Notes under the pieces: model-generated | What the model was told of the DNA's origin: nothing | What the model saw: only the letters and a program-made list of their open reading frames with translations | The model's database searches: none | Part shown: in pieces, positions 10,239 through 61,064 of the stretch | How the letters are laid out: each line of letters begins with the position of its first letter | How positions within the stretch are numbered: position 1 is the stretch's first letter | NCBI RefSeq assembly: GCF_009914755.1 | Contig: NC_060941.1 | Strand: one strand, 5' to 3' | Source of the DNA: the human T2T-CHM13v2.0 reference genome, Homo sapiens | DNA length: 64,000 nt | Position numbers and translations under genes: made by a program

Positions 10239-10298
10239 TGTCCAGAAGTACTGGATTTTCCAATGGAAGCTTTGACATCATGAACTCTGTCTCTGCAT
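10239..10298 (-). CDS. CCL23: CCL23 exon 2 (DAETEFMMSKLPLENPVLLD)
   Basis: 60-nt exon, ctgcttcttccAG acceptor and GTAAGT donor. Confidence 0.97.
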
Positions 10299-10844: not shown

Positions 10845-11455
10845 CATTTTTAAATCGTGGTTATATATATATATATATAACGTAAAATTTGCCATTTGAA
10901 CTATTTTAAGTATACAGTTCAATAGCATCAAATACACTCAAATAACTATGCAGTTTTCACGGCCGTTCATTCATTTTGTGAAACTGAAACTCTGTATTCA
11001 TTAAACAACAACTCCTCATGCTTCCTCCCCTTAATCCCTGACAATCACTATCTGTGTCGTGTCTCTGTGGATTTGACTAAGTACCTCATGTGAGTGGAAT
11101 CATACACTATTTGTCCTTTTGTGACTGGTTTATTTCACTTAGCATAATGTCCTTGATGTTTATCCATGTTGTAGCATGTGTCAGAATCTCCTTACTTAAA
11201 TTTTTATTTTTTCTTACTTCAACATTCAAGGGAATCTCCTTACTTTTTGAGGCCAAATAGATTCCATTGTATGTATGAACCACACTTTGTTTATCTACTA
11301 ACCTTTTGATGGGCACTTAGTTTGCTTCTACTTTTTGGCTACCGTCATCAATAATGCTGCTATGAATATGGGTGTATAAAAATCAATTCATGTACCTGCT
11401 TTGAATTATTTTGGATATATACCCAGAAATAGAATTGCTGCATCATATCATATTA
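10845..11455 (-). mobile_element. Old L1M 3' fragment
   Basis: L1M-type 3' end; peptide EILTHATTWINIKDIMLSEINQSQKDK on minus strand. Confidence 0.75.
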
Positions 11456-12044: not shown

Positions 12045-12556
12045 TTTCTTTTTTTAAAGTTAAATTAAATTAAATTTTATTTGACTTTAAGTTCTGGTAT
12101 ACCTGTGCTGAACGCGCAGGTTCATTACATAGGTATACATGTGCCATGGTGGTTTGCTGTACCTATCAACCCATCATCTAGGGCTGCTGCATGCACCAGG
12201 TATTTGTCCTAATGCTCTCCCTCCTTTTACCCTCCACTCCCCGATAGGCCCCAGTGTGTGATGTTCCCCTCCCTGTGTCCATGCATTCTCAGTGTTCAAC
12301 TCCCACTTACGAGTGAGAACATGTGGTGTTTGGCTTTCTGTTTCTGTGTTAGTTTGCTGAGGATGATGGTTTCCGGCTTTATCCATGTCCCTGCAAAGGA
12401 CATGAATTCATTTCTTTTTATGGCTGCATAGTATTCCATGGTGTATATGTGCCACATTGTCTTTATCCAGTCTATCATTGATGGGCATTTGGGTTGGTTT
12501 CAAGTCTTTGCTATTGTGATTAGTGCTGCAATAAAGATACATGTGCATGTGTCTTT
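12045..12556 (-). mobile_element. L1PA 3' end (5'-truncated, L1PA7/8-like)
   Basis: ORF2 C-terminus MIDWIKTMWHIYTMEYYAAIK... plus L1PA 3'UTR. Confidence 0.85.
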
Positions 12557-12589
12557 TAATATAATATATGTGTACTTTTCATATATTTA

Positions 12590-21377: not shown

Positions 21378-22127
21378 GAGGCTTGTTGCTTTTAATTAAA
21401 CTAGGTACTTGTTAGAGAAGGACTACATAAATCTTAGTAAAGATGCTTTATTCTAGTTAGGGTAGAGATAGAGGATTGAGGAAGTTTCTGCCATCCAGAG
21501 CTGTGGAGCCTTTGTGCCCATTGGAGATTTCAAGGGAGGTCCAGATGCATCCCTTTGGACTGGGATGAAGAGAAACATTTCTGAAAGGGATAGCATTTGA
21601 TGCAGGTCTCAGAAATAGGACAGAGACTGTATACTGCTTCAAAAGGCAGGGAAGGGAGGAAGAAGATCCTAGTCAGCTGTAACTGCCAATAAGGATAGTA
21701 AATAGTTGCAATGAGATATGGGCTACTTACTGTTTTATGTTTTACAATTATTATATAATTAAATCTTAACTACAATCTTGTGAAATAGGCACAGTCATTA
21801 GCTCTTTTTCCAGATGAGGCTATGGAGACATACAGCAATAGAGTAATTTGCTAATATTTGCTATATGCCCACATGGGTAGTAAAGGGCAAAGCTGGCATT
21901 TGAACCAAGGTCTCTCTAATACTAGACCTCACTATTTAAGACAAAGGCATGGACATGATCAAATTGAGGCACATTTTGGATGTGTCTATAGTATACAAAT
22001 AATGTACACATAAGCATGATCATTAATGTTTTTAAATTGGACTTTTTTATTTTGAGGTAATTGTAGATTCACATGCAATTGTAAGAAATAATACAGAGAG
22101 ATCCTGGGTAGTGTACTCTTTACACAG

Positions 22128-22964
<837 letters not shown>

Positions 22965-25419
22965 CCAGTTTCTCCCAAAAGTGACATGTTGCAAAACGAT
23001 AGTACAATATAGTAGAGGATATTGACATTGATATCATCAATATACAGAAAAGTTCCTTCACCACAAGGCTCCCTCATGTAACCCTTGTATAGCTACACTT
23101 ATCTCCCTCCCACCCATCCCACCCCTTCCTCAATTCTTGGCAACCACGAATCTGTTCTCCATGTTTATAATCTTGTCATTTTATGAATGTTATGTAAATG
23201 GAATCATATGGTATGTCACCTCTTGGGATTGGCTTTATTCACTCAGCTGAATTCTCTGGAGATTCATTCAGGTTGTTGCATGTGCCAATAGTTCATTCTT
23301 TTTATTGCTGAATAGTATTCCATGATATGGTTGAACCACAGTTTGTTTAATCATTTATCCACTGAAGGACATCTGGGTGTTTCCAGTTTTGGGCTATTAT
23401 AAATAATGCTGCAATAAACATTCATGTACTGCTTTGTTTATGTGAATGTAAGTCTTCATTCTCCAGGATAAATGCTCAAGGGTACGATTAACATTTAGCA
23501 TGGCTATCAATACTTTAAGACAAGTTCTGTGATCAAGTATTTTCTTTTTAAGTAAAGTAGGGGGCATGTGTTTGTTTTTTTCAGCACCTTCCTTTCTTCT
23601 GGAAAGATGCCCTCTTCTTGGAGGAACTGCCCATGTAGCTATTAGGTTCTGTGAGGCTCTTGCCCATCACAGTACCTCCTCCTTTGCAATAGATGTGCAC
23701 CTACCTCCCCAGTCAGACAACTGGGGTCCTTCCCAGGGATTTTTCAGATTCTAATGACAGAAAAGCAGCAGCTCCTTCAGGAAGTGGAGGTCCTGTGGTC
23801 TGCCTTCAGAAGAGCAATGCCATTGATACCAGGATCCTGTGGAACTGCATGCCCTGGGGCTGGTTTTCCCTGAGCTGTACGCCTGCCATCCACTCTGAAT
23901 TTATGAGCTAATAAACTATTTCTGGTTTTGCTCGAGGAAATTTTGAGAGAGCTTTCTGTCACATAAGACTCAAAGTATAAAGAATCTTTCATTCCCCACT
24001 CCTGGGCTCTTTCTGGCTTCGTGCTCATGGTTCTGACTCTCCTCTCCTTCAGTTCTGAGGTCCCAACTGTCAGGGCCCAAAGAAACCGCTCAAGTTCTTG
24101 CTGTGTCCAGCACAATTTTCATGGAACAGCCCTTGGTGTTTTCTCCAAGGCTCTGATACCAAATCTACACTGAGACCTGGAGCCTATGGCTTCCTTGGGC
24201 CCCCAGAGGGCTGGGAGTCATAATTTGGCACAATGAGTGAGAGCTGAGAGAAAGTGGGCCTGGGATTAAATCCTGGGCAGAGAAATTCCCAAGGGCTGGC
24301 AGAGGTGAGGGGATGGGGTAGGAGCCTTGGGCTCTGCTCCTGCTGCATCCTGAACTGGGATACCTCAACTGCAGTGTGGCGACTGTGCTGTGAGCTCTAG
24401 ATCACGGCTGGCATCATGGGCGTGTGACCTGTGCAATTACACAGGTCCTTGCTCTTGGTTTCAGGCTCTGCTGCCGTTGTTGTTTAGGAGTTAGTAGTTT
24501 TTTAACAAGGGGCCTAACACTTTCATTTTTCACTGGGTCTTGTGTAGTCATGGCTTCAGGCACTGTGGAGTTGTCACTAATGTACTGCACCCTTTGGATG
24601 ATGAAGATGAGGCACAAGAGGCTGAGGAGTTGAGACTCTGTACAAGTTCCTACCTTCCCCATGGAATCCTGGAGACTTCTGGCTTTGGGCAAGTCTCCTT
24701 TCCGAGGGGTTGCTCCCTATTCCCCAGGACCCTATACACACCTGAGCCAGTGTCCTCCACGGTGATTCATGCGATCCTTTCAGGCAGTTCCCTCTTTCTT
24801 CTTCTTTGTCCCAGACTTGGCCCCTCTCTACCCACTGGGACCACCTCCTCCATCTCTTTGAAGGCTCAGCCCAGGCCAAAAGGTGCTCAGCTTCTCTCTG
24901 TGTCTGCACACCTGATAGGTGTCCAGAAGTCTTCCTCTCCCTTGGGAAGTACCCAGCCTTCCTCCTCTTTTCAGGCCCTGCTAGCTTTTTTCACCCCTGA
25001 GGTCAGCAGTTGGAACCCAAGTTCCCCAAGGTCAGTGGTTGGAGCCCAAGTTTGCCTGACTCTAAAGCCTGTGATTGTCTTATTATATCTTGCTCTTCTT
25101 GTTACAACAGTGATTATTTTAACAATCATTATCATTTATTAAGTGCTTACTATGGGCAGGTCAGGACCAGATGGTGGTAAATGAGGCACTAGCCTTGCGC
25201 TTGTGTTGAAAACCCAAGGGGACACCAAAAAGTTCAGTAGTAAAAATAAGTAATATTTTAGTGAACTATTTAAAAAATCAAAATTACTACTGAAAAAATC
25301 ACAATGAACAAAACACAAAAACACTTAAATAAAGACAGGATCGGTAACAGTGCTGTGCCGAGCCATATTGGAACTTGAGGAAAAAGGTAAAATCAATGGG
25401 AGCTTCCTGTTAGAATATC

Positions 25420-25576
25420 CACCCATCCATCTGTCCATTCATCAATATGTCCATCCATCTATCCATACATCTGTCCATCCATCCATCCATCTCCCATCCA
25501 TCCATCCATCCATCTGTCCCTCTGTCCATCTGTTCATCCACCCATCCACCTCTCATCCATCCATCTGTCCATCCAT

Positions 25577-25612
<36 letters not shown>
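25420..25612. repeat. (CCAT)n degenerate microsatellite
   Basis: Directly visible; explains the HPSI/MDGW ORFs. Confidence 0.95.
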
Positions 25613-25613
<1 letters not shown>

Positions 25614-26358
25614 TAATATAAATTTACTGAGCATCTACCACGTGCTGGGCATTCTGCTCAGCACCAAGAGTATCACACAAAGAGCCAAAAAGATTATGTT
25701 CCTTTCCTCCTGGAGACAAAATTAAATAATCACACAAATAAACATGTACTTATACACTGTGATAAGCAACACCATGGAAAAGAATATATTGGGGGCCCAG
25801 AGAATGCCTCTCTGAGAAAGTAGCATTTAAGCTGAGAATTATAAAATGAGCAATGTTTGCTAAGTTGACAAGTGAGGAAAAGGGAGACAAAGGTAAGGGA
25901 AGTAGTTTGTGCAAAAGTCTTGAGGCAGGAGGTACTAGCACATATCAGGGACTGGTTGGTATTAGTTGAGAGCAACTAGAAAAATCATGGGTCCTGCCTT
26001 GAGTTTTATACAAGGGCAGAGGAAGAACCAGCCCTCAAAATTAAAGACACAACGGGAGACCAAAATGAAAGCTGCTATATAGTTTCCCCCCAAAGTTGTC
26101 CTCGTTCAAGCTATCAGTGACACATACGCAGGGGCTGTTGATTTATGCCTATCATGAGGCATCTGCCTCTCTTCCTGGGAGTGTGAGACTCATGCCAAAA
26201 GCTTAGCGGTGGTCTGCAGTGGCCTCATCTAGGGCTGCTCCTGGGAATGCACTGGAAAGAGAAGCCCCCTTCGAGGCTTCTCTGGGTTCATTTCCTTTAA
26301 ATCCAAAGCCCTTCTTTGGGTTCATTTCCTTTAAAGCATGGCCAGGTCAGCTTCAGGC

Positions 26359-26873
26359 TATAAGATATGATGAAGTTTCTCTTCAAATAGCCTAATCAAT
26401 CCTTTATTCTTTAATAGTACCTCCCCACCCCTTTTTCCTTTTTGTCTTTTTTTCTTCCTTTCTGCCTTTGTTACATGCCCAGACACGCCACAATACCAGG
26501 TGTTAGCAGTACCAGCTCACATTCCTTTCCTTATTAAAAAAAAAAAGACTAACTCTCTAGCTCATTACAGACACCCCTTCCCCTTTCCCCTCTCTCTCTT
26601 ACATGCCCACCTTATCTGAAACAAAAAAGTTCAAATATTTAGCCAAACAGAATTAGTTTAAAGCGTACAACCCAATCCTGGCCAATGAAAAAAAAAAATA
26701 CAAAAGCAAGACTTGCGTCAGAAATAAAGGCTTTCATGCCCCTTTATTCAAGTGTGCTCCCATGGCGACTGGCCAAGGAGAAACACCCCTCTGCGCAAAA
26801 GTAAAATTGCTTTGCTAAAAATCCTTTGTTTAAGTGTTCAATTTCCTTAGAATTTTAAATATTATTCCCAAAA
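26359..26873 (+). mobile_element. ERV1 solo LTR (LTR10-like), G-depleted
   Basis: TSD AGGC (26355-26358 / 26874-26877); CCAAT box and AATAAA present; termini TA...AA instead of TG...CA. Confidence 0.7.
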
Positions 26874-27419
26874 AGGCCTTAGCATCATCTTAAGCAGTCA
26901 CAAACAGACCTGTCAAATTCCTACCAACCTTTTCTTTCCTCTTCTTTTCTTTGCCCTGACATTTCCTGTATTTGGGCCTCTGAAGATTCAAAGAATAGAG
27001 TCCCTAACTTACCCAGCCCATCCCTGCCTTGAGTTGGTCTTTGACCCTTTAATAACTGCGCCCTTCCATTTAAAAGTAAAATATTTCCTTGTTAAGAAGA
27101 CATGTGGTTGGATTATTGCTTCTGCTTTTCACAAAGCCATAGAGTAAAAGCCAAGCCTCAGGATCTGGAGAGGAGGGATGAGGTTGAATTTTATGATCTA
27201 TACTTCTCTCTTGGCAGCCAGGCAGGATTTGAGGGAGCAGGACCCTGTTAGAGATGAGGCAACCCAGGGAGCTGGAAAGAATATGGTGACTGCCTGGACA
27301 CATGGAAAGGAATACTGCATAGGCTCTGCCACTGGGTTAACTGTAGTTGGGATTGAAATTTACAAAATAGCCCTGAGTGTCTGCCATACCAGGCAATGAG
27401 GGACAGAGGACAAGTGAGC

Positions 27420-28100
27420 AGCATCCCTCTGCCCCCTGCACTCATGCGTCCATCAATAAGTTGGTTCTTTCTAAAGAATATCTGCAATCTGTTGCCTCCT
27501 CTCCATTCTCAGTGCCCCTGCCTTAGTTCAGTCTTTTACCTGGACTATTGCAATGGTCTCCTAATTGGTCCCCCTGCTTCCCTTCTTGCTCCCCTCAAAC
27601 CCGTTCTCTGTCCTGAAGCCAGAGTACTCTTTCTAAAACCCAAATCAGGCCATGCCCATCTACTGACAACCTTTGGCTTACAAGGCTCTGACAGGTCTAC
27701 TGTTCTCGCTGAACTTCCAGTCCCACTGGCCTTCTTTTCATTAGGCAAACACAATCACCCCAGGGCCTTTGCCTTTTCTGGTTTCTCTGCCTGGATGCTT
27801 TCCTACCTCTGGCTTGTTTTATGGCTGAATCTTCCTCATCTTGTAGGGCTCAGATTAATTGTCACCTTCTTAGAGAGGCCTCCTCTGACCTTTCCTAAAG
27901 AACCCACACACCATAGCCTGTTTTAGGTCTTTCAAAGCATTGGTTACCATTGGAAATTACTTTGTATACTTGTTCGCTTGAGGATCATTTCCCCCTTTCC
28001 CATTCCACCCCCTAGAATGTAAGCTCCTGAGGGCTGGGATGGTACATGTCTAGGTTACCCCAGTATCTGGCACTGGGAGCAGTGCCCAATAAATGTGGAA
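27420..28100. mobile_element. L2 fragment
   Basis: Degenerate L2 motifs (cctggactattgcaatggtctcctaattggt; ctagaatgtaagctcctgaggg; caataaatg). Confidence 0.65.
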
Positions 28101-29531
28101 TGAGGGTGTCACAGGCTGTGGTGTGTCAGAGGAGGTGGAGATGGGCCACTTTGGTCTGGGAGGATCGGAGAAGATGTAGCATTTGACAGAAATCTTGAAA
28201 AGCAGACAGAGAAAGCAGGAGAGAGAAAGCAGAAGAGAAAGTGGAGTTTGCAAACTCCATGGATAGAAAGAACCATGAGAGACAAATGCCTAGAAGTAAG
28301 AAATCCATATTTGGGTTTGCGGTTTGGCCATACAATCTAACTTTCAAGGAGCAGATCTATATCTAATATGCTGCATATTATTTCAAGGCCACCCAAAGTC
28401 CATATATAGGGGCCCTAGTCCCCACCTCATGGGTCCTTCTAAGCTTTTTGCTTCACGTGCCAACTCCCTCCTCTCCAGCCTGACTTGCTGGAGTCCAGTG
28501 ATCCAGCTGGGTCCAATACAGCTTTCTTCCAATATCCTTCTTTACTTTCTCCAAAGCTCAAGTAACATGTTCACAAGTCAATGTCTAATATTGCTACCAA
28601 CAGCTCACTGGGTCCCTGAGCCTCCACATACCCCAAAGAGGGTGTCAGAGCCAAGCTTCAGAATAGAATGGAATTCAGCACAGTGGAGGAGATCAGGAAA
28701 AAACTGTCATTGGGGATTAATCTCAGGGCAGGACAGCTACCATGCAGTGGCGGGGGCTGTGGGATTAGCGGTTGGCCATGACTAGATCCTTTCTCTCCAT
28801 GCTCAGAGTGTTTCAGCTCATCCAATTAACCCTGAACTAATGTTTACCTCAAACCCAAGCAGGCGAGACATTTACTTGTGTCTAAATTATGAGTCAAGGG
28901 GTAGAAGGATCAAAAATGGAGGAATGCAAAAGCTGAGGAGGGATCATCCCATCTTTCTTCCATTCTCTGGTAAATTTGGGGGCTTTTGTCTCCTTCCCGA
29001 AGGATGAGCTCCAACCAGGGTCAGAGCAAGACCTGAGTGGTCCTAGGCTCTAAAAAGGTTATTCTGTGTTTCAGCATGTAATTTCAAATACCCAATACTA
29101 ACTGAAAAGTAATGATAAGACTGTATAAGGGACTTTTGATTTTTTTAAATAATAGCCACTTTGATCACTGTGTACATGCATGAAGTTGCAAATATTGTAT
29201 TCTTTCAAAAGCATTATTTGTTGATTTCCTAAGCACCTGCCGGTTGCCTATTGGGCAATGCAGCACTGATTCCATTCACTTGGACTCCCAAGTCCACCCC
29301 ACCCCACTTCTAGCAGCCTCCTTTCAGCCTTCTCCTTCCCTTCCCCACCATGCTGCTCCATTTACTGGGAACTGCTTCCACCTGGAAGACTCCAGCCCAG
29401 GCCAGAAAGCCCCCAGGCTGGCCCTCTACTGCCTCTCCCTGTGTCTGCAACACCTGGCAGGTGCTCTGACGGTTGGTGCTTCTCTCAACAGTCTCCATCC
29501 CACTGAGTCTGATTAATGGAGTGAGACTCAC

Positions 29532-29644
29532 AGGGTGGTGGGTTTGGGACACACTTCATGAATTAGACAGATAATAATGTATCACATACTTGCATGGGAT
29601 CCTCCAGGTGATGTAGCAGCACTTACTGATGTTGTCATTCATAT
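29532..29644 (-). pseudogene. Psi-C: isolated CC-chemokine cysteine exon
   Basis: ctgcttctttccAG|AT ATG AAT GAC AAC ATC AGT AAG TGC TGC TAC ATC ACC TGG AGG ATC CCA TGC AAG TAT...TGT CCC AAA CCC ACC ACC CT|GTGAGT; reads MNDNISKCCYITWRIPCKYVIHYY / LIHEVCPKPTT with one frameshift. Confidence 0.8.
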
Positions 29645-29939
29645 CTGGAAAGAAGCAGGTGGAAGTAGGGCTAAGCCATGCTCTAGGAGACTCAGACATG
29701 CTACTCCGTGCACCAAGAATGGGAGGCAATGCCTTTCACTCAGACAAGAAACACACCTAAAGCCAAAATACTAAATTACCTACAGCCACTGGAATCTGCC
29801 ATTTCTCTTGTGTAAGTTGTTCATCATCATTGAATAATAAACCCACTCACACTTTATCCCTACCAGGAACCTCACTCTCGCTTGACCAAATCCACTATCC
29901 TTTTTTTTGTGTAGGAGAAAAAATAAGGATCTTTATTTG

Positions 29940-30460
29940 TGAAGGAGTTAAGAATATGCCGCCCAAAATTCACTGTTCTGGCATATTTTAAATTAAAGGC
30001 ATGTAAAAAAAGAACCCAGCAGGTGCAAGAAGATCCTTCTTTATTTTGACCTTTATTGTCTTTATCAAAGGCAGGAAATGAAATGCCCATGTGAAAGATG
30101 TCCTCCTTATACCGAAAGAAAAATAATATTCTTATTAAGGATGGGAAGCTGAAGCCGAGAGAAGTCTACACAAACAAACCTTATCACCTTAGTCATTTCT
30201 GTACCCAATTAATCACCCAGCGCAGCCCCTTTGCCTTATCACATTTCACAACTTCCTATTTTTTGTCCAATTCAGTGTATAAGTAACTGACCCTAACTGC
30301 TTCTTTGAGTTTCTGTTCCTTATGAGGGATCTTGTGTCATGTAAAACTTGTATTAACTAAATTTGTGTACTTTTCTCCTATTAATCTATCATATGTCAAT
30401 TTAATTCTTGAGTCCAGGTGGGATCTTAAGAAAATGGAGATGGATTTTTGCCTCTCCTAA
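29940..30460 (+). mobile_element. ERV1 LTR (MER34-like)
   Basis: Starts tgaaggagttaagaatatgcc; family from memory. Confidence 0.55.
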
Positions 30461-31150
30461 GTTTGGTAGGTGCTTTCTATATAATGTGTTATTTAATTCT
30501 CCCCTAAACTCTAAGAGGTTGATGTTCTTGTTCCATTAGGAACATAAACTTGGCAAGCCTTGGTAAGGTTAAGGAACTTGTTGGCGTTAACCCATTGTTA
30601 AGTGGCTGAGACCTGAAACCGGGATGTCAATTCCAAGTCCCAAGACTTAACTTCTTCACCAACATTACTAACTCGTTTGGCTGCAAGTGTCATTTACCCT
30701 CTGAATGAGTTTCCACACCTGTGAAGAGGAGATTGATGCTTTCTCTCTGGCAGGGTAGTTGTGAGATTAGAAATAATGTATGTAAAGCACAAACCTGGCA
30801 TGACTACCATTTTTATTAAGCATTTATTCTGTGCCAGGTGGTGTTCTATGAGCTTAAATGTATGTATTAATTAATTTAACCATCACAACAAACTTGCATT
30901 GTAGATGTTATTATCATCTCCATTTTATAGAGAAGCAAACCAAGGCATAGAGAAATTAGGTAACCTGTGAAAGCCACATGGGAGAATAAGTGATAGCTAT
31001 TATTTTCAAAATTGTGATTTCCCATGCATCAAGCCCTTTCTTTGTCCTTCCTTGAGAGCCTCTCTCCTTAATTTAAGCTACCAGGGAAGGAGCAGCCCAA
31101 GAACTAGCCCATTCTGGCTCTTGCTTTTTTCACGGGAGGTTTTACTTTGC

Positions 31151-31460
<310 letters not shown>

Positions 31461-31845
31461 CTGTTCCACCTTGATTATTCTGTTTCTAGCCCAGTCTCAG
31501 GGCACCCTCATGAATCTCACATAGAGTTAATGTTTAGAAATTACCCGATATTGAATTACAACTTTATGACTCCAAATATTGATTTTGAAGATAATAAAAC
31601 TGTTTAAGTTACAATAATGATGAGGAAATAATTTTTTCAGGTCATAAAGAATCTTTTGTTTTTATGGTAACTTTTTATTTTAAAATAACTTTACACTGAC
31701 ATAGAAATTGCAGAAATAGTACATAAAGTTTCTGTGCAATCTTGACTCAGCTTCCCCCAATGGGAAGCTTATAAAACTTCATATACAACCGTATAAAAAA
31801 TGCATTATGATCATCAAAACTAGAAAATTGACAGTTCTACAATAT

Positions 31846-32165
31846 CATTATCATTATTATTTTTTGAGACAGAGTCTTGCTCTGTCACCCAGGCTGGAGT
31901 GCAGTGGCACCATCTTGGCTCACTGCAACCTCCGTCTCCTGGGTTCAAGTGATTCTTCTGCTTCAGCCTCCTGAGTAGCTGGGATTACAGGTGCTCACCG
32001 CCATGCTTGGCTAATTTTTGTATTTTTAGTAGATATGGGGTTTCTCCATGTTGACCAGGCTGGTCTTGAACCCCTGACCTCAAGTGATCCGCCTGCCTCA
32101 GCCTCCCAAAGTGCTGGGATTACAGGCATGAGCCACTGCGCCCAACCAGCCATCGTGCCCGGCCT
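31846..32165 (-). mobile_element. Alu (AluS-like)
   Basis: Reverse dimer within an L1M fragment. Confidence 0.9.
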
Positions 32166-32513
32166 CTACAATATTATCAACAAAACAGATCTTATTAAAA
32201 TTTTACCAATTTTTACATGCAGTCATTTTTCGTTGGTGTATAGTTGAATCATATGATCCCTTGGGTGTCTATGCCAACTTCTGGCCTCCCACATCTAAGT
32301 TACTGAATCATCTGCCTCCCATGTTTTGGTAAATAACATTCACCCTCCTCCCAGAGCTGCGGTCTTGCTTGACTGGCCCCACTTCCCCTATTCAAAGGAG
32401 AAAGGCTGGAGTTGCAGAAGGAGGCATGGGGAGAATTATGGCTTTATTTTTTATTAGACTATTCTTATTTTAGTAAAGTTGTTTTTGCACACTGGCTCAT
32501 GCAGCAGTGTATA

Positions 32514-32994
32514 TAGTTATGTGCCACATAATGATGTTTTTATCAATGACAGACTACATATATGACACTTAACAACATGCATATGTTCTGAGAAATGCTT
32601 TGTTAGGCAATTTCATCATTATACAGACATCATGTACTTACACAAACCTAGATGGTGTAGCCTACTACACATCTTATTATAAGATTATAATACCATAATT
32701 TGTTCAGCAGCAATACATTAAACAAAAATTATGCTACCTTATTTTTACTGTACCTTTTCTATGTTTAGGTATGTTTAGGTACACAAATACTCACCACTGT
32801 GTTACAACTGCCTACAGTATTCTGTACAGTAGCATGCTGCACAGGTTTGTAGCCTAGGAGCAATTGCTGTACCATATAGGTGTGTGGCAGGCTCCACCAT
32901 CTAGGTTTGTGTAAGTATGTGATGTCTGTACAATGAAATTGTCTAATGAAGCATTTCTCAAAACCTATGCCCATCGTTAAGCAACATACGACTG
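32514..32994 (+). mobile_element. Tigger3/Golem-like DNA transposon with internal inverted duplication
   Basis: Homologous to the copy at 63726; degenerate TIRs; TA flanks. Confidence 0.75.
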
Positions 32995-33220
32995 TATCTG
33001 TTTCCTGAATTTAATTGTTTCCCCGGCTGATTCCAGAGTATTTTCTATTGACCATTGACTATGAGGCCCTCTGTCTACACCCTTCCCCAGATGTTCATTG
33101 CTTCCAGAGAAGGAAATGGGGTTGGTCCAGCTTGATTCGGCCTAACTGCACCATGCTGACTTGCAGTGACTACTTCCTTTCTGAAGTGCCAACAAGAGGT
33201 TTTTTAAAATAAGAATTATA

Positions 33221-33555
<335 letters not shown>

Positions 33556-34512
33556 CTAGAGGCAGCTGACCACTCTGAAGTTGATGGAGTCTATCGTCTA
33601 TTTTCTTTCTCCCTCCTTTTTTGGAAAGCTGGGTGCTATTTTCTCATCTTCAATATTCCACAACCTGTCTGCCTCCCAAGAATCTGCAAAGATCATCAAT
33701 CTCTACCATGTGTTTTCTCAGCTGATAGAGAGGACTTCATCCAAGTCAAGGGACTGAGAAGCCACCCATCTTGGGCTTCGATTTCTTCGTATCTTTGGGA
33801 ATTATCCCCATTCTAGCCTATAATGGACAGAGAATGAATGAATAAAAATTGGAGACCACATGTTCTGCTTTATCCCTTCCATCTGTTCAGTTAACACTCT
33901 TTATTCATTTACTCATTCATTTATTCTGTAAATATGTATTGAATACATACCATGAGCAGAGCACTGGAGATTCAGCTGCAAACAAGATGCATAGGGCCTT
34001 CTGTGAGTTTAAGCAAACAGTAAGCCTCTGGCACCTTCTTCCTAAAGTAAAACAAAGCAAACACTTTTACCATCATTCACTATTAAAAAAGCAACACTAT
34101 GGAAAAATTTTGAAAATATTTAAGCAAAAAGAAGTCAGCAAAAATCCCCTGTGATCCCACAATAACATTCTTAGATGTGTCTTCATCTTTTTTCCCTGTT
34201 TGCTTTCTCCCTACGTGGGATCATACCAAAAAAAGTCATATTCCATGTTTTCACAAGTTGTGTACAATTTCAATTTCATTGTAAAATTCTTATATGCAAT
34301 TTAAAATAATTTTTAACAAAAAAGATGCCTGCTTTTTAACAGAATTTTTAAGAAAATCAAATAAATGAAAAAAATCTCTTTACTATCAATATTTTGATGT
34401 GTAAGTTTCAAGTCATGTTTTTGTATGTAGTCATTATGTATAATACAGATATACAGTTAAACAAAAATGAGGTAATAATAACTGTTCTTTTCTACAGCCT
34501 GATTTTTACAGG

Positions 34513-35115
<603 letters not shown>

Positions 35116-35119
35116 ATAG

Positions 35120-35350
35120 TTTTATTTATATATTTGTTTATATATATATATAAATATTATTTATATATTTGTTTATATATATATAAATATTATTTATATA
35201 TTTGTTTATATATATATAAATATTGTTTATATATATATTTATATATAATATATATTTTTATTTATATATTATATATAAATATATATAGAATATATATATA
35301 ATATTTATTTATATATAATATATATGTATTTTAAATTATATATAATATAT
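35120..35350. repeat. (TA)-rich low complexity with ~34-bp tandem units
   Basis: tttatatatttgtttatatatatataaatattat repeated about 3 times. Confidence 0.85.
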
Positions 35351-35569
35351 ATTTTGATATTAACTAGGCATAAAATATGGACTGAGAATAAAGAGTAGCA
35401 ATACAACAAGCATCCCTGTACCCGATGCCTGGGATGGTCCCTGAGTGGTCATTTCCACAGAGTGATCTCTCTCCTGAATAATGTTTATAATATACTCTTG
35501 CCTTTCTGATCATTTCACCATATAGATTTGAATATTAATATATTTAACTTTGTATGTTTTTAAACTTCA

Positions 35570-35864
35570 TTTCATTTTTTTGAGACAGGATCTCACTCTG
35601 TCACCCAGGCCGAGGGCAGTGGCACGATCATGGCTCACTGCAGCCTCGACCTCCCTGAAATCAAGAGATCCTCCCACCTCATCCTAGCAAGTAGCTGGGA
35701 CTACAAGTATGTGCCACCATGCCTGGCTGGTTTTTGTATTATTTTTGTAGAGATGGGTTTTCATCATGTTGTCCAGGCTGGTCTTGAACTCCTGGGCTCA
35801 AGCGATTCGCCCACCTCGGCCTCCCAACGTGTTCGAACTGCAGGTGTGAGCCACTGCTCTGGGC
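35570..35864 (-). mobile_element. Alu (AluJ-like)
   Basis: Diverged reverse dimer. Confidence 0.85.
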
Positions 35865-36743
35865 TGTTTTCAAACTTACATAAATGGAATTATTATATGT
35901 TTTATTCCATAGCTTTTTTTCCCTCTCAACATTATGCTCCTGAGATTCACACTATTTACTATATGTAGCTGTAATGTGCTTGCTTTCGTTCCTGGTAATA
36001 TTTTGGTTTATGAACATACCGTGATTTATTTTCCATTTGCCCCTTTTATTTTTGCTAGTGCCAACAGCACTGATTGGAGTATTCTTGTGTATGTTTCCTG
36101 CTGTGAACGTGCAAGGGTAACTGTGGCTCTCTCTAGGAGTGTGACTGCTAGGTCATCGGCCATGCACACCTTTGCTGCAACAAGATGACAATGGTATTTT
36201 CCAAGGTGGGAGGACAAATTCACACTCCCTGCAGCAGTGTGTGCATGTCAGTTGCTCCACATCTTCACTAATATGAATACTTTTCAAACTAGTGTTTATT
36301 AAATTTGGAGCTAGAGAGACAGGGAGACAAGGAGACAGGGAGGGAGGAAGTTAGGAAGGGAGGAAGTGAGGAAGCAAGGAAGAAAGAAAGAGAGGAATAT
36401 TTTATTCTTTCAAAGCCTGAACCCAGCACTGGCTACTCATAGTCAATAAATATGTGCTGGTTTGATGAATTTCTTACAATGTCTGCCTAGATAGCTCATT
36501 GCAGCCATGAAATGGAGTCAATCCCTTTGTGACTGAAGGGGAAAGGTGGAGGGAGACAAGAGAAGGCCATCTGACTTCCCAGAACATTTAGTAAACAACA
36601 CAATTCACAATCAAAAAGGGATTATAAGTAAAATAGCATACGTACATTTAAAATGAAGTTAGACCCCCAGATCTGGAATCAGTTTCTGAGGTTGCAGAGA
36701 CTTTTGCCTGTTTTGGGTCCCTGTGCCCAATCTGTTCACATCT

Positions 36744-36864
36744 CTAGCACTTTTCTTGCTGGGTCCAGACCTTGCCGGGGTTTAATTCCAGTTGCTGATG
36801 TATTCCTGGACCCACACCTTGCTGGAGTTGGCATAGACCTTTCCAGTCTCCTCTGTGGAGGAAG
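36744..36864 (-). pseudogene. Psi-B exon 3 (CC chemokine C-terminal exon)
   Basis: ccatTG (acceptor lost)|C TTC CTC c ACA GAG GAG ACT GGA AAG GTC TAT GCC AAC TCC AGC AAG GTG TGG GTC CAG GAA TAC ATC AGC AAC; reads FL/TEETGKVYANSSKVWVQEYISN/LELN. 3' boundary uncertain. Confidence 0.85.
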
Positions 36865-37006
36865 CAATGGTAAGAGAGAGAAGTGAATAAAGAAGAGACA
36901 ATCCTGCAGCAGAATGCCTGTAACCTCCCCATGTTTCTCTACCCTGGGGATCTCAGAGACAGTTTATTTTCAGAGCCAGGAGCATCCCGCAAATCCCAAG
37001 ACCTAG

Positions 37007-37351
<345 letters not shown>

Positions 37352-37638
37352 CCAAGACCTAGATTTTTTAAAAAATTGTTCATGAGTTTCTTCTCGGGTT
37401 GACTTCCCTCTGCTATCCTTTCCTTTCCTCTTCTCTGCATGAAGGTGGCTCTTCCTTGGCTCCCTACAGGCTGTGGGTCCATGCAGAAAACACCACAGGG
37501 ACCTATCCCTATGTCCTGCATGTCTAATGAGTTCCTGGAGGTCTGGGTCTCCCAGGTTCCCCCTCCATCTCTTGAGTCTTGGGGGCTGTGTGTCCCTCCA
37601 TGTCTCTCCCCTACGAGTGGCAAGAGGGCTACACCTAC

Positions 37639-37716
37639 ATGCTGAGAGCATCCACTGCTGGTCTCTAATGCAAATTTGTGAATAACCTACTGGAAAATGT
37701 TTGAGAAGCAGCAAGA
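37639..37716 (-). pseudogene. Psi-B exon 2, 3' part
   Basis: SCCFSNIFQ*VIHKFALETSSGCSQ then CAT|GTAGGTG donor, the same junction as CCL23 exon 3. Confidence 0.85.
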
Positions 37717-52962: not shown

Positions 52963-53319
52963 ATATTAGAAACATTACAACATAGTGCAAAGATCAAATA
53001 TTCATTGAAAAATGCATATCCAGAAATTCTGTGGTTGATGAATTTGGTCGAATATCTAGAGAGAGGATTTAGCACAAACATTCAGCACCATCTAGAATCA
53101 CTGTGTACTATGTGGTTTCTTAGAGAAAACATTCAATAAAAACAATTTAAAATTGGAAATACACAATAAAAGTGAAATAAATTAAAATTTAAGTTTGGTT
53201 TGGTTATGGGGGGACTAGACCATAAAGGAGGTAGCTTCTGGGGTTGTAAGTGCTATTCTTCTGGCTCAGCTCCCTGTTCCCCAATCTACTGATGGATTTA
53301 ATTTTTTTTTCTGGGCTAT

Positions 53320-53406
53320 TCAGATTTAGCTCTGGGTTTTGATGTATTCCTGGACTCAGCATCTCTGGGGTTGACACAGACCAGCTGACCTCTTTTAGTC
53401 TGAAAG
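53320..53406 (-). pseudogene. Psi-A exon 3
   Basis: ctttccccatAG|C TTT CAG ACT AAA AGA GGT CAG CTG GTC TGT GTC AAC CCC AGA GAT; reads FQTKRGQLVCVNPRDA/*VQEYI/NPELN. Confidence 0.92.
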
Positions 53407-53816
53407 CTATGGGGAAAGGCAGAAGATTAAGAAGAATCTAGCCAGCTGGGAAATTTCTGGACCCATTGTGGCCCCTCCATCCCTCTTTCTGACTTGTCCT
53501 CTCAGAGTCTCTCTCTTTCTCAGCAATCAGCTCCCATGCCTTAGGGTTCCAGTTTCCCAGAGTATCTCATGAGAATCTCTTCAGTCAGCACCCTCCTGCC
53601 ATCATGTCCTCCCTCTCTCTTCCTCTGCCCCTGGCCAGCCTCTCCTGTCTCCCTGATGACCCTGGACTGTTCAGAAAATACCTCAGAGACTCTTCTGTGC
53701 CTGTGAGGGGCCCAGAGAGCTGGGTATTCCCAGGATGGTGTCCAATCCACCTCCTTACACCCATGGGGGCTGCTCCAGTGTCTCCCCCAGGAATGGGAAG
53801 GAGGAATGGCCCTTAT

Positions 53817-53931
53817 ACAACACTGGGCTTAGAGCACAGGCTGCAGGTTTTATAACAGTCTGCTGCAAAATCTTGAGGGATCTTCTAGGGGGTATAAGGG
53901 AAGCAGCAGGAGGCTGTGGAGTCAACACCAG
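53817..53931 (-). pseudogene. Psi-A exon 2 (115 nt)
   Basis: cttctcctacAG acceptor; SGVDSTASCCFPYTP*KIPQDFAADCYKTCSLCSKPSVV; TAG 53885-53887; donor GTAAG mutated to ATAAG. Confidence 0.95.
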
Positions 53932-54645
53932 CTGTAGGAGAAGGCACAGCAAGAGACTGAGTTATTGAGAAGCCATAGAAAACCAACTTCCCCTCTCCAT
54001 GCCCCCTGCTCTCCCTTTAACCCAAAAAAGATCAGAAGGAACTAGAAGGAACTAGAAGGACACAGCATTTCTTAAGTTGGGGAATTCAGATGAACTGGGA
54101 CACACATGTCTTTCCTACAAATTACTTTGCCTTTGTCTATATCACTCCATTTTTATTTTTATTTTTACTCTTTTAGGGATTTAGCTCACTAAAATGTCTC
54201 ATCTTCCAGTTCATCTCTTTTGGGAGGGAAATTTGTCTGTCCTGTGATATCGCAATACTAAAGAGATGAAGCTGGGATATGTCACATATCACCAATAGGA
54301 CAGGCCTCTACGGAATAGCTGACATGAATTTAGGCTTACATGCACCAGTGGGAAATAAATAGAGCTGCCAGTTACTCTGTGAATTGGGCCTCAATTATCT
54401 TATCAGGAAAGTGGAAATTAGCATCTCCTGCTCCCACTCTCTGAACCACTTGGTGGAATGTGATAGCCTGGACCCTTTTGAAAAAAAGACTTTTTGAAGA
54501 GAATGGCCAGGGCGATTTGAATTCCTGTTTTGAGTGCTCCATTTTCAACTCTGGTGATCTTTATTTTCAGGGCATGTTTGGTGTGGTCTCACCTGGGGCC
54601 AAAAAGGGTAACATCTGAATAAGGCAGAAGAGATGACACTCTCCC

Positions 54646-54723
54646 ACAGTACCAAGGAGGTCTGGGAGCAGAGGACCACAATAGGGGGAGGAGAATGGTG
54701 GAGACAGTTGAAAATGCCTGTGT
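54646..54723 (-). pseudogene. Psi-A exon 1
   Basis: tgcctgcccagcatc (identical to CCL18 60232-60246), then ACA in place of ATG; QAFSTVSTILLP/IVVLCSQTSLVL; donor GTGAG mutated to GGGAG. Confidence 0.88.
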
Positions 54724-54836
54724 GATGCTGGGCAGGCAAGGGATTCTGGGCTTGAGTGTCAGCATAGTTAAGACAAGCAAGCTTGCGTATTTGAAGCTGG
54801 CACCTCCTTCTTGGGTTCAAGCCATTGCCCCTTCTC

Positions 54837-54842
54837 TTTATA
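54837..54842 (-). promoter_or_regulatory. Psi-A TATA box (CTATAAAGAG context)
   Basis: Same context as the CCL18 TATA in this window (ctataaa...agaaggagg). Confidence 0.75.
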
Positions 54843-55002
54843 GAGAGTTCCATTTTGTGGGAAGATAGAAACTGGGGATGATTGGAGGAAAATATTTTAA
54901 TCAGAATGTTAGTGTCATGTTGGGAGTTACATAATTCAGGGGTTGCCAACACCCTTTGGTCAACACAGAAGTTCCAAGTATATGCAAGAATAGCTTACCT
55001 TC

Positions 55003-60313: not shown

Positions 60314-60962
60314 GTGAGTCTGTCATCCATGTGCTTTGATGGCTCCCTGGGCAGAAGTCAGGCGACATCTTCCAAGTGCTGTGGCCTGAAAACCCTCGTG
60401 TGAAATTAGGGATCCTCAAATGGGGTTTCAAAGTGACATCATTGTTTTCTTCAAGAAGGTTGAAAAGCAGTCTATTGATCTGGGCAGCAGGATGGGAGTC
60501 AGAGAAGTTTTATCCTACTGAGATAAATGAGATGGTTGAAGTCTAATTCATTGGGTTATTAGCGTGAGGTAGAATCTAGGTCTATTTAGTTCTCACTGGT
60601 GCTGGTAAGTTTTACAATGACCTCAGCAGTCTCCTAGAGTTCAACCCCTTGGGTAACATAAAAGATGTCTATACTTTTCTCAGCTATCTTGTGATTTAAT
60701 CTATTAGAAAAAAAATTCCCCAAGGAGAGTTAGGAGAAGGGCATAGACTATTCAGGGAGCTTGATTCCCTGTAGCGTAAAATAAAGACTAAAATGGAGAG
60801 ACAAGACTAGGGAAATTAAGGAGAAACAAACAAAAAGCCAGATTATTTCCAGCTTTCTTTTCCTGCAGGCCTCAACTCTGAGCTATGCTGTCTCCCTTTG
60901 CTCCTTTGTGACCCGCCTGGGCTTCTTCTCCTGAGCAACTCCTGTTGTCTTTGTTCCCTCAG

Positions 60963-61064
60963 ATAAGATTCACACCCCATGCATCTGCTGCTTCTCCTAC
61001 ACCTCCCAGTAGATGCACTGCAAATTTTCGGTTGCCTATTATAAAACCAGTGGTGAGCGGTCTT
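60963..61064 (+). pseudogene. CCL18 intron-1 pseudoexon (MIP-1alpha-like exon 2)
   Basis: ttgttccctcAG|AT AAG...; DKIHTPCICCFSYTSQ*MHCKFSVAYYKTSGERS; TAG 61010-61012; truncated by L1M-like sequence. Consistent with the known gene-fusion origin of CCL18. Confidence 0.9.

What the first reader, a model, noticed from the sequence alone, without database searches (positions are those of the whole stretch)
29532..29644. Psi-C: orphan chemokine exon mixing CCL18-like and CCL23-like features, splice sites intact
Reads MNDNISKCC--YITWRIPCKYVIHYY(+4 nt)LIHEVCPKPTT. YITWRIP and CPKP resemble CCL18 (YTSWQIP...CPKP). IPC carries the extra cysteine of the 6-Cys group, as in CCL23 RSIPCS in this window. 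Length 113 fits 115-6+4. The acceptor ctgcttctttccAG and donor GTGAGT are intact, so the exon could still be spliced into a noncoding transcript. Exon 1 was not found and exon 3 has only a weak candidate near 29057.
Basis: partly seen in the sequence, partly recalled or inferred. Interest (0 to 1): 0.8.

Follow-up and report, generated by a model that had tools for sequence, protein, structure and literature searches.

The report
Decayed CCL14-like chemokine pseudogene exon
This is the leftover middle exon of a long-dead chemokine gene related to CCL14, CCL15 and CCL23, sitting among other such relics in the human chromosome 17 chemokine cluster; it is an ordinary pseudogene remnant, not a CCL18/CCL23 hybrid.

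Summary
On the minus strand, 29644..29532 is a 113-nt CC-chemokine exon-2 relic with an intact acceptor and donor. It has a 6-nt deletion after the CC codons, a +4-nt frameshift and then a TGA.

It is more than chance:
- Exon-2 nucleotide profiles built without it find it in 164 kb at E 4.8e-5 to 0.0026.
- A profile of 19 human exon-2 peptides scores it 18.2 bits; 0 of 5000 shuffles reach that.

The exon is not an orphan. It belongs to a roughly 1.5-kb relic (29725..28186) that runs in the same order as CCL14, from the end of intron 1 to the 3'UTR (nhmmer E 1e-15 and 1e-9; controls). A second decayed copy lies at 25049..23819.

Searches with the CCL18, CCL3 and CCL4 gene regions find nothing here. 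Seven of seven trees place it with CCL14/15/23. AU tests reject pairing with CCL18 (p 5e-5) and with CCL15/23 (p 0.0035).

The CCL18-like W and P and the "extra" Cys are each one transition away from codons found in other cluster members. No exon 1 was found, and the exon-3 coding part is destroyed. This is ordinary and of low interest.

The parts
29645..29725 (-). 3' end of intron 1 of the relic, including the polypyrimidine tract and acceptor AG (29646-29645)
   Evidence: The nhmmer alignment with CCL14 starts at 29725, matching CCL14 window coordinate -19551. Sequence read.
29532..29644 (-). Exon-2 relic (Psi-C), 113 nt. CC codons at 29621-29616. W codon TGG at 29606-29604. 'Extra' Cys TGC at 29594-29592. 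Four extra bases at 29570-29567. In-frame TGA at 29558-29556. Third-Cys codon TGT at 29551-29549.
   Evidence: Exon-2 profile hits at E 4.8e-5 to 0.0026. Peptide profile 18.2 bits, 0 of 5000 shuffles reach it.
29320..29531 (-). Donor GTGAGT and the 5' part of intron 2. It contains a block (about 29468-29401) shared with CCL14 and copy B.
   Evidence: blastn 69.6% over 148 nt, E 1.2e-12. nhmmer E 1.2e-15. Alignment view.
28186..28967 (-). 3' end of intron 2, the site of exon 3 (acceptor AG lost; coding part not recognisable, about 28885-28800) and the 3'UTR remnant.
   Evidence: nhmmer CCL14 -20129..-20863 against 28967..28186, E 1.2e-9. The exon-3 profile gives only E 6.8 and 28 at 28838-28807 and 28916-28895.
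23819..25049 (-). Copy B, a second decayed relic of the same lineage: intron 2 and the start of exon 3 (25049-24543), then the 3'UTR (24359-24116, extending to 23819 by homology with Psi-C's 3'UTR). No exon 2 was detected.
   Evidence: nhmmer with CCL14, E 3.1e-14 and 3.2e-5. Psi-C 28766-28256 against 24315-23819, E 5e-13. Exon-3 profile hit at 24631-24566, E 0.024. Pairs with Psi-C in 4 of the 4 trees that include it, support 74-97.

Best explanation
Psi-C is exon 2 of a dead chemokine gene that arose by genomic (not retro-) duplication. The gene belongs to the HCC lineage of the 17q12 MIP cluster, the lineage of CCL14, CCL15 and CCL23.

What survives is the end of intron 1, exon 2, intron 2, a wrecked exon-3 site and part of the 3'UTR (29725..28186, minus strand). 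A sibling relic (copy B) lies 3-4 kb further downstream on the same strand.

The gene cannot make a chemokine:
- No exon 1 or signal peptide is detectable.
- Exon 2 carries a 6-nt deletion and a +4-nt frameshift followed by TGA.
- The exon-3 acceptor and coding sequence are gone.

The CCL18-like and CCL23-like residues are best read as parallel single transitions during decay, two of them at CpG sites. The intact splice sites, CC codons and third-Cys codon are leftovers. The exon is no better conserved against CCL14 than the neighbouring intron.

Shown: homology, gene order, the lesions and the tree placement. Inferred: the great age of the split, neutral decay, and absence of function.
For: **Same order as CCL14 across non-coding parts.**
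- nhmmer E 1.2e-15 (29725..29320) and 1.2e-9 (28967..28186).
- blastn 69.6% over 148 nt of intron 2, E 1.2e-12.
- With Psi-C as query against 164 kb, the hits at E<0.01 apart from itself are CCL14 (2 hits) and copy B (2 hits); one further hit, at 21629-21528 (E 0.015), is unexplained.

**Controls.** The reversed CCL14 query hits only the (GGAT)n tract. 5 of 5 window-shuffled queries give 0 hits at E<=10.

**Other cluster genes.** The CCL18, CCL3 and CCL4 regions give 0 hits in 22000-36000. In the pairwise score matrix Psi-C scores only with CCL14 (59-73 bits), copy B (31-36) and psi77k (11-15).

**Trees of about 1050-1090 kept columns.** Psi-C falls with CCL14/15/23 in 7 of 7 trees (one; three aligners, each with and without copy B), with support 85-100.

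**AU tests.** Rejected: +CCL18 (p 5.2e-5), +(CCL18,CCL3) (p 0.0012), +(CCL15,CCL23) (p 0.0035).

**Identity of Psi-C to CCL14.** Exon 2 is 53-54% and intron 2 is 48-51%, so there is no exon-specific conservation.

**Lesions.**. No exon 1. Exon-3 coding not recognisable.

**Codon comparisons for W, C and P.**
Against: - The best protein-level match among solved structures is CCL18 (E 0.0062), ahead of CCL14 (E 0.31).
- Exon-2 nucleotide identity does not separate cluster members: 56% to CCL14 and CCL4, 55% to CCL18, 58% to the CCL18 intron-1 pseudo-exon.
- CCL14 is the 'hub' that aligns with every gene of the cluster. Matching only CCL14 may partly reflect CCL14's slow change rather than close kinship.
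- A strict Psi-C+CCL14 sister pair is marginally rejected (p 0.03). Its place inside the HCC clade changes with the aligner.
- Psi-C and copy B are long branches (0.5-0.8 changes per site) and could attract each other.
- Keeping both splice sites and all three Cys codons after so much divergence is somewhat lucky, if decay began early.
- No cross-species or RNA data could be consulted.
Confidence: 0.85

Rival explanations
1. One reading: a relic of a CCL18/CCL3-like gene that also carries the extra cysteine of the six-cysteine CCL15/CCL23 group. That would make it a mosaic or intermediate form.
For: - CCL18 is the top solved-structure hit (E 0.0062).
- W at the CCL18 position and C-P-K-P are shared with CCL18. 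Cys follows I-P as in CCL23 and CCL15.
- Three CCL3-like relics do lie further along the same strand, at 37.7 kb and 53.8 kb in the window and at 77.6 kb beyond its end.
Against: - No nucleotide match to the CCL18, CCL3 or CCL4 gene regions.
- AU tests: p 5.2e-5 (+CCL18), 0.0012 (+CCL18,CCL3), 0.03 (inside the whole CCL3-like clade), 0.0035 (+CCL15,CCL23).
- Each shared residue is one transition away from a paralogue's codon. The same TGC arose in an unrelated CCL3-like pseudo-exon.
- No counterpart of CCL23's extra 60-nt exon (10239-10298) appeared among the 11 hits of the CCL23 gene-region search of 22000-36000.
- The partner cysteine cannot be checked because exon 3 is destroyed.
Confidence: 0.04
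2. The relic exon is still in use: its intact acceptor and donor let it be spliced into a non-coding transcript. That could be a longer form of the same-strand lncRNA LOC105371746, or a transcript reading through towards CCL23.
For: - Strong polypyrimidine tract, AG, and a GTGAGT donor.
- Same strand as LOC105371746 (exons 36732-33728, upstream) and CCL23 (downstream), from the annotation supplied with the finding.
- CCL15-CCL14 read-through transcripts are annotated next door.
Against: - The RefSeq table supplied shows no exon here.
- Exon identity to CCL14 is no higher than that of the intron.
- No RNA data were available to me, so this is untested rather than refuted.
- It would add to the pseudogene reading, not replace it.
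Confidence: 0.1
3. A chance resemblance in non-genic DNA.
For: - Pfam IL8 finds nothing.
- The genome-wide PF00048 scan and the peptide scan do not link it to chemokines.
Against: - Profile E-values of 4.8e-5 to 0.0026.
- 0 of 5000 shuffles reach its peptide score.
- Homology with CCL14, in the same order, over about 1.2 kb of flanking non-coding DNA, with clean controls.
- Correct strand, phase, length and splice register inside the chemokine cluster.
Confidence: 0.01

Closest known systems
CCL14 (HCC-1) gene, window coordinates -17367..-20808, minus strand
   Same: - Same strand.
- Same exon-2 register: 23 nt before the CC codons, and the donor two bases into a codon.
- The end of intron 1, exon 2, intron 2 and the 3'UTR can all be aligned.
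- Highest identity to Psi-C of the six functional cluster genes compared in every segment.
   Different: - Psi-C has no exon 1.
- It has a 6-nt deletion, a +4 frameshift and a stop in exon 2, and a destroyed exon 3.
- Identity is only about 50% over the whole region.
- A strict sister pairing is marginally rejected (p 0.03). It may branch below the CCL14/(CCL15,CCL23) split.
The two human CCL3 pseudogenes on either side of CCL18 (Figure 4 legend of PMC3749542, which cites Nomiyama et al. 2003). They are probably my psi53k (53.3-54.8 kb) and psi77k (77.1-77.7 kb).
   Same: Decayed, unprocessed chemokine gene copies on the same strand of the same cluster, with recognisable exon 2 and exon 3 and with stops.
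   Different: - They fall in the CCL3/CCL18 clade and Psi-C does not.
- psi53k keeps all three exons.
- They are far less decayed: exon-2 profile E 3e-24 and 1e-6, against 5e-5 for Psi-C.
- I saw passages and legends of the 2013 paper only. I could not read the 2003 paper.
Pseudo-exons inside CCL18 intron 1 (Tasaki et al. 1999, as cited in PMC3749542; I did not read the 1999 paper)
   Same: Isolated chemokine exon relics left by duplication and fusion. The one at 60951-61057 (+) has the same Arg-to-Cys-type TGC codon after the I-P position.
   Different: They are CCL3-like and lie inside a working gene. Psi-C is HCC-like and lies between genes.
Guinea-pig CclN1, a chemokine gene between Ccl23 and Ccl3a (PMC3749542, section 3, passages read)
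   Same: The same interval of the cluster, between CCL23 and the CCL3-like genes.
   Different: The paper reports that CclN1 is most similar to Ccl24 and Ccl2 (38-42%). Psi-C's exon 2 is among the least similar to CCL24 (40%) and CCL2 (45%). No direct comparison was made.

Membership tests
CC chemokine gene (Pfam IL8, PF00048) | Adjacent Cys-Cys at the start of the mature part coded by exon 2 | tested here: met
   TGC TGC at 29621-29616, in register with 21 other human CC exon-2 sequences (19 genes and 2 relics).
CC chemokine gene (Pfam IL8, PF00048) | Third cysteine about 22 residues after the CC, in the same frame | tested here: not met
   The TGT at 29551-29549 aligns with the third-Cys codon, but only after skipping one base of the 4-nt insert. 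In frame, a TGA comes first.
CC chemokine gene (Pfam IL8, PF00048) | Domain score over the curated cut-off | tested here: not met
   No IL8 hit at E<=10 for the frame-corrected 36-residue peptide. Not among the 85 genome matches. A purpose-built exon-2 peptide profile gives 18.2 bits, and 0 of 5000 shuffles reach it.
CC chemokine gene (Pfam IL8, PF00048) | Three-exon gene: signal-peptide exon 1, exon 2, exon 3 with the fourth cysteine | tested here: not met
   Exon 1: 0 hits at E<=100 in 20000-45000. Exon 3: the site is located by its order relative to CCL14, but the acceptor is lost and the coding part scores only E 6.8.
HCC lineage of the MIP cluster (CCL14/CCL15/CCL23) | Gene-level nucleotide homology, including the introns | tested here: met
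   nhmmer against CCL14, E 1.2e-15 and 1.2e-9, in the same order. Controls are clean. Direct hits to CCL15 and CCL23 are absent.
HCC lineage of the MIP cluster (CCL14/CCL15/CCL23) | Falls inside the clade on a tree | tested here: met
   7 of 7 trees, support 85-100. Caveat: Psi-C is a long branch and identity is about 50%.
Six-cysteine group (CCL15/CCL23; mouse Ccl6/Ccl9) | Extra Cys after I-P, paired with an extra Cys in the last exon | tested here: inconclusive
   The first Cys codon is present (TGC 29594-29592). The partner cannot be checked because the exon-3 coding part is destroyed. TGC is one CpG transition from the CGC/CGT of CCL4, CCL14 and CCL5, and it recurs in a CCL3-like pseudo-exon.
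Six-cysteine group (CCL15/CCL23; mouse Ccl6/Ccl9) | Additional short exon coding an N-terminal extension, and kinship with CCL15/CCL23 | tested here: not met
   The CCL23 gene-region search gives no hit for 10239-10298 in 22000-36000. AU rejects Psi-C+(CCL15,CCL23), p 0.0035.
CCL18 / CCL3-like genes | Closest relative at gene level | tested here: not met
   0 nhmmer hits from the CCL18, CCL3 or CCL4 regions. AU p 5.2e-5 and 0.0012. Only the short peptide match favours CCL18 (E 0.0062).

The most novel reading that the evidence does not exclude
Psi-C and copy B are the last traces of an old, otherwise unrecorded HCC-type chemokine gene pair between CCL23 and the CCL3-like genes. That gene may still be intact in some other mammals. 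Alternatively, its splice-competent exon 2 may be built into a human non-coding transcript running towards CCL23. Neither possibility could be tested here, because no other mammalian genomes and no RNA data were available.
Probability: 0.12. Interest if true: 0.4.

Novelty: new member of a known kind. Interest (0 to 1): 0.22.

Why it matters
The practical value is tidier annotation of a medically important cluster. The interval between CCL23 and CCL18 holds at least four unprocessed chemokine relics on the minus strand, of two lineages: Psi-C and copy B (HCC-like), and psi37k and psi53k (CCL3-like).

Of these, the text I could read mentions only the CCL3 pseudogenes flanking CCL18. The RefSeq table supplied annotates none of them.

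The relics mark the boundary between the HCC block and the CCL3-like block. They record extra rounds of tandem duplication and loss.

The case also shows how CpG decay can imitate subfamily "signature" residues, here Trp and an extra Cys, and so mislead a reading made from the peptide alone. It does not change what is known about chemokine biology.

Tried and rejected
- **Pfam scan** of the frame-corrected peptide and of the open 28-residue part: no IL8 hit, only a noise match to Neurexophilin at E 0.62.
- **Genome-wide PF00048 scan:** 85 matches, none at Psi-C. It also misses psi53k and the CCL18 intron pseudo-exon, so its silence says little.
- **Genome-wide search with the peptide:** 5 matches. 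Only the self-match is meaningful; the other four (E 0.7-8) lie on other chromosomes.
- **tblastn with CCL23:** does not list Psi-C at E<1.
- **Plain blastn (word size 9)** of 27-33 kb against the cluster: mostly Alu matches, plus one 68-nt CCL14 match that gave the lead.
- **Large protein database:** The 67-residue reading of the same stretch found no candidate sharing three 5-residue words. I do not know whether that database holds mammalian proteins, so this says nothing about orthologues.
- **The apparent match of 25397-25683** to the stretch downstream of CCL14 (E 4e-18): rejected as a (GGAT)n microsatellite, with bias 31 bits. The reversed query hits it too.
nothing there.
- **Literature:** four searches found no mention of a CCL14-like pseudogene. 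Six name variants gave 0 papers. In PMC3749542 I read passages and legends; in PMC3568907 only two passages.
- **Not held:** PMC1794421 and PubMed 12639297, the 2003 human-mouse cluster comparison. That paper and the 2010 review by the same group may already list this relic.
- **Closed:** supplements and earlier findings of this scan.
- **One nhmmer batch timed out**. I re-ran it in smaller pieces.

Full report
**1. What is there**

The window is T2T chr17:36,952,001-37,016,000, in the MIP part of the CC chemokine cluster. The genome is held as G000.

On the minus strand the sequence reads ...cttccacctgcttctttccAG|AT ATG AAT ... TGC TGC TAC ATC ACC TGG AGG ATC CCA TGC AAG TAT GTG ATA CAT TAT TAT CTGT CTA ATT CAT GAA GTG TGT CCC AAA CCC ACC ACC CT|GTGAGT.

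- In frame it reads MNDNISKCCYITWRIPCKYVIHYYLSNS and stops at TGA 29558-29556.
- Taking the four bases 29570-29567 as one step restores ...LIHEVCPKPTT.
- Set beside the exon 2 of 19 human CC chemokine genes and two other relics, it has the usual 23 nt before the CC codons. It has the donor two bases into a codon, a 6-nt gap just after the CC, and 4 extra bases before the third-Cys codon.

**2. Is it more than chance?**

Yes.

- Nucleotide profiles of exon 2 were built from 6, 8 or 19 functional genes, without Psi-C. Searching 164 kb on both strands, they find 29621-29571, 29621-29572 and 29640-29572 at E 4.8e-5, 0.0014 and 0.0026.
- A peptide profile of 19 exon-2 peptides scores the frame-corrected reading at 18.2 bits. 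0 of 5000 shuffles reach that; the best is 16.8.

General tools were weaker:

- Pfam IL8 gave nothing at E<=10.
- The genome-wide PF00048 scan (85 matches) misses it, but also misses clearer relics.
- tblastn with CCL23 did not list it at E<1.
- The peptide alone finds only itself in the genome.
- Among solved structures the best hit is CCL18 (E 0.0062, 20 bits), then CCL14 (E 0.31 and 0.42) and an unrelated chain.

**3. It is not an orphan exon**

A 68-nt blastn match just downstream of the donor pointed to CCL14 intron 2. A more sensitive blastn gave 69.6% over 148 nt (E 1.2e-12) at the matching distance from the exon. It gave a second block just before CCL14 exon 3.

nhmmer with the CCL14 gene region against 22000-36000 gave these hits:

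| CCL14 (window coordinates) | Target | E | What it covers |
|---|---|---|---|
| -19551..-19993 | 29725..29320 | 1.2e-15 | End of intron 1, acceptor, exon 2, donor, intron 2 |
| -20129..-20863 | 28967..28186 | 1.2e-9 | End of intron 2, exon-3 site, 3'UTR |
| -19736..-20272 | 25049..24543 | 3.1e-14 | Copy B: intron 2 and start of exon 3 |
| -20320..-20583 | 24359..24116 | 3.2e-5 | Copy B: 3'UTR |

A fifth hit (25683..25397, E 4e-18) is a (GGAT)n tract with 31 bits of bias.

Controls: the reversed query hits only that tract, and 5 of 5 window-shuffled queries give nothing at E<=10.

With Psi-C as query against the 164 kb, the only other hits at E<0.01 are CCL14 (2) and copy B (2, the best at E 5e-13 between the two 3'UTRs). 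One unexplained hit has E 0.015.

At the exon-3 site the polypyrimidine tract is recognisable, but the AG is gone (CATAA). The coding part does not resemble any chemokine exon 3: the profile gives E 6.8 and 28.

An exon-1/promoter profile finds 10 sites in the 164 kb, including three relics. It finds none in 20000-45000 even at E<=100.

**4. Which lineage?**

- The CCL18 (exons 2-3), CCL3 and CCL4 regions give 0 hits in 22000-36000. The CCL15, CCL23 and CCL16 regions hit Alu elements and a few other spots and score zero against the Psi-C region.
- In an all-against-all score matrix of exon 2 to 3'UTR regions, Psi-C scores only with CCL14 (59-73 bits), copy B (31-36) and psi77k (11-15).
- CCL14 aligns with every gene of the cluster right across intron 2. 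CCL14 is a slowly changing hub, so "matches only CCL14" is not by itself proof of sisterhood.

Maximum-likelihood trees on about 1050-1090 kept columns settle the broad question.

- In 7 of 7 trees (three aligners, each with and without copy B), Psi-C sits with CCL14, CCL15 and CCL23, with support 85-100.
- It usually pairs with copy B (support 74-97).
- It comes out either as sister of CCL14 or below the CCL14/(CCL15,CCL23) split.

AU tests:

| Grouping tested | p |
|---|---|
| Psi-C + CCL18 | 5.2e-5 |
| Psi-C + (CCL18,CCL3) | 0.0012 |
| Psi-C + (CCL15,CCL23) | 0.0035 |
| Psi-C inside the whole CCL3-like clade | 0.03 |
| Strict Psi-C + CCL14 pair | 0.03 |

Caveats: overall identity is about 50%, and Psi-C and copy B are long branches (0.5-0.8 changes per site).

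By comparison, CCL15 and CCL23 end branches are about 0.1-0.14. PMC3749542 (passage read) states that these two have separate mouse orthologues. I therefore infer that the Psi-C lineage split off well before the primate-rodent divergence. This is an inference, and alignment error inflates it.

**5. The "CCL18-like" and "CCL23-like" residues**

In the exon alignment:

- **Trp.** The codon is TGG in Psi-C and CCL18, against CGG in CCL3.
- **Cys after I-P.** The codon is TGC in Psi-C, against CGC in CCL4, CGT in CCL14 and CCL5, and TGT in CCL15 and CCL23. The CCL3-like pseudo-exon in CCL18 intron 1 has TGC at the same place.
- **Pro of CPKP.** The codon is CCC, against TCC in most cluster members. 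CCL2 and CCL8 also read C-P-K.

Each is a single transition, and two are at CpG sites. Parallel change is the economical reading, and it agrees with the trees.

The six-cysteine idea cannot be fully tested, because the partner cysteine would lie in the destroyed exon 3. No counterpart of CCL23's extra 60-nt exon was seen.

**6. Mechanism**

The relic keeps its introns, so it came from a DNA-level tandem duplication and not from retrotransposition.

It cannot encode a chemokine. It has no signal-peptide exon, a frameshift and stop in exon 2, and no exon 3.

Identity to CCL14 is 53-54% in exon 2 and 48-51% in intron 2. Nothing suggests constraint on the exon.

I conclude that it is a neutrally decaying pseudogene fragment (confidence 0.85). 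The intact splice sites leave open use in a non-coding transcript. I could not test that, and the supplied RefSeq table shows no exon there.

**7. Known or new?**

The Figure 4 legend of PMC3749542 mentions two human CCL3 pseudogenes flanking CCL18, credited to a 2003 paper that I could not read. These fit my psi53k and psi77k.

Four literature searches found no CCL14-like pseudogene.

The same paper places a guinea-pig gene, CclN1, between Ccl23 and Ccl3a. It is described as Ccl24/Ccl2-like, which Psi-C is not. No direct comparison was possible.

**Verdict.** A real but ordinary relic, and a new (or at least unannotated) member of a well-known kind.

Noticed in passing
window 36781-36883 and 37632-37713, minus strand: Another unannotated chemokine pseudogene (psi37k). 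The exon-2 relic reads CCFSNIFQ*VIHKFALETSSGCSQ (profile E 0.006). The exon-3 relic has E 2.5e-11. It falls in the CCL3-like clade in all 6 trees. The first exon of lncRNA LOC105371746 (36646-36732) starts about 50 nt downstream of the exon-3 relic, so the lncRNA may start in the old 3'UTR.
   Followed up: partly
window 53308-53432, 53805-53947, 54659-54846, minus strand: A three-exon CCL3-like pseudogene with in-frame stops (psi53k). Profile E-values: exon 1 3.4e-5, exon 2 3.2e-24, exon 3 3.2e-18. It is probably one of the two 'CCL3-ps on each side of CCL18' named in PMC3749542. The other appears at 77069-77200 and 77603-77694, outside the window.
   Followed up: partly
window 60951-61057 (+), 61420-61467 (-), 62204-62361 (-); also 65548-65756 (+), outside the window: CCL18 intron 1 holds plus-strand pseudo-exons: an exon-2-like one (E 2.6e-10) and an exon-1-like one (E 2e-12). 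These fit the published fusion origin of CCL18. It also holds minus-strand relics, which I have not seen described: an exon-1-like one (E 8.3e-11) and the 3' half of an exon 2 (E 0.003-0.004).
   Followed up: no
window 23125-23290 and 23294-23462: Two stretches just downstream of copy B match two separate pieces of CCL23 intron 1 (11026-11186 and 12409-12580), in the same order and on the same strand (E 3.9e-9 and 2.1e-12). They could be a shared old repeat or the remains of a further duplicated segment.
   Followed up: no
window 24066-24194 against window coordinates -11254..-11119 (between CCL15 and CCL14): Copy B's 3' end matches a spot between CCL15 and CCL14 (E 2.8e-7; 66% over 133 nt). 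Unexplained; it may be an old repeat or another relic.
   Followed up: no
window 25397-25683: A (GGAT)n/(GGA)n microsatellite of about 290 nt, like the one just downstream of CCL14 (-20944..-21249). It scores as low complexity, so homology by position is possible but cannot be shown.
   Followed up: yes
CCL14 gene region, window coordinates -19560..-20650: CCL14 is the only gene of the cluster whose stretch from exon 2 to the 3'UTR aligns by nhmmer with every other member, intron 2 included (39-145 bits). It looks like the slowest-changing copy and is a useful probe for finding further relics.
   Followed up: partly
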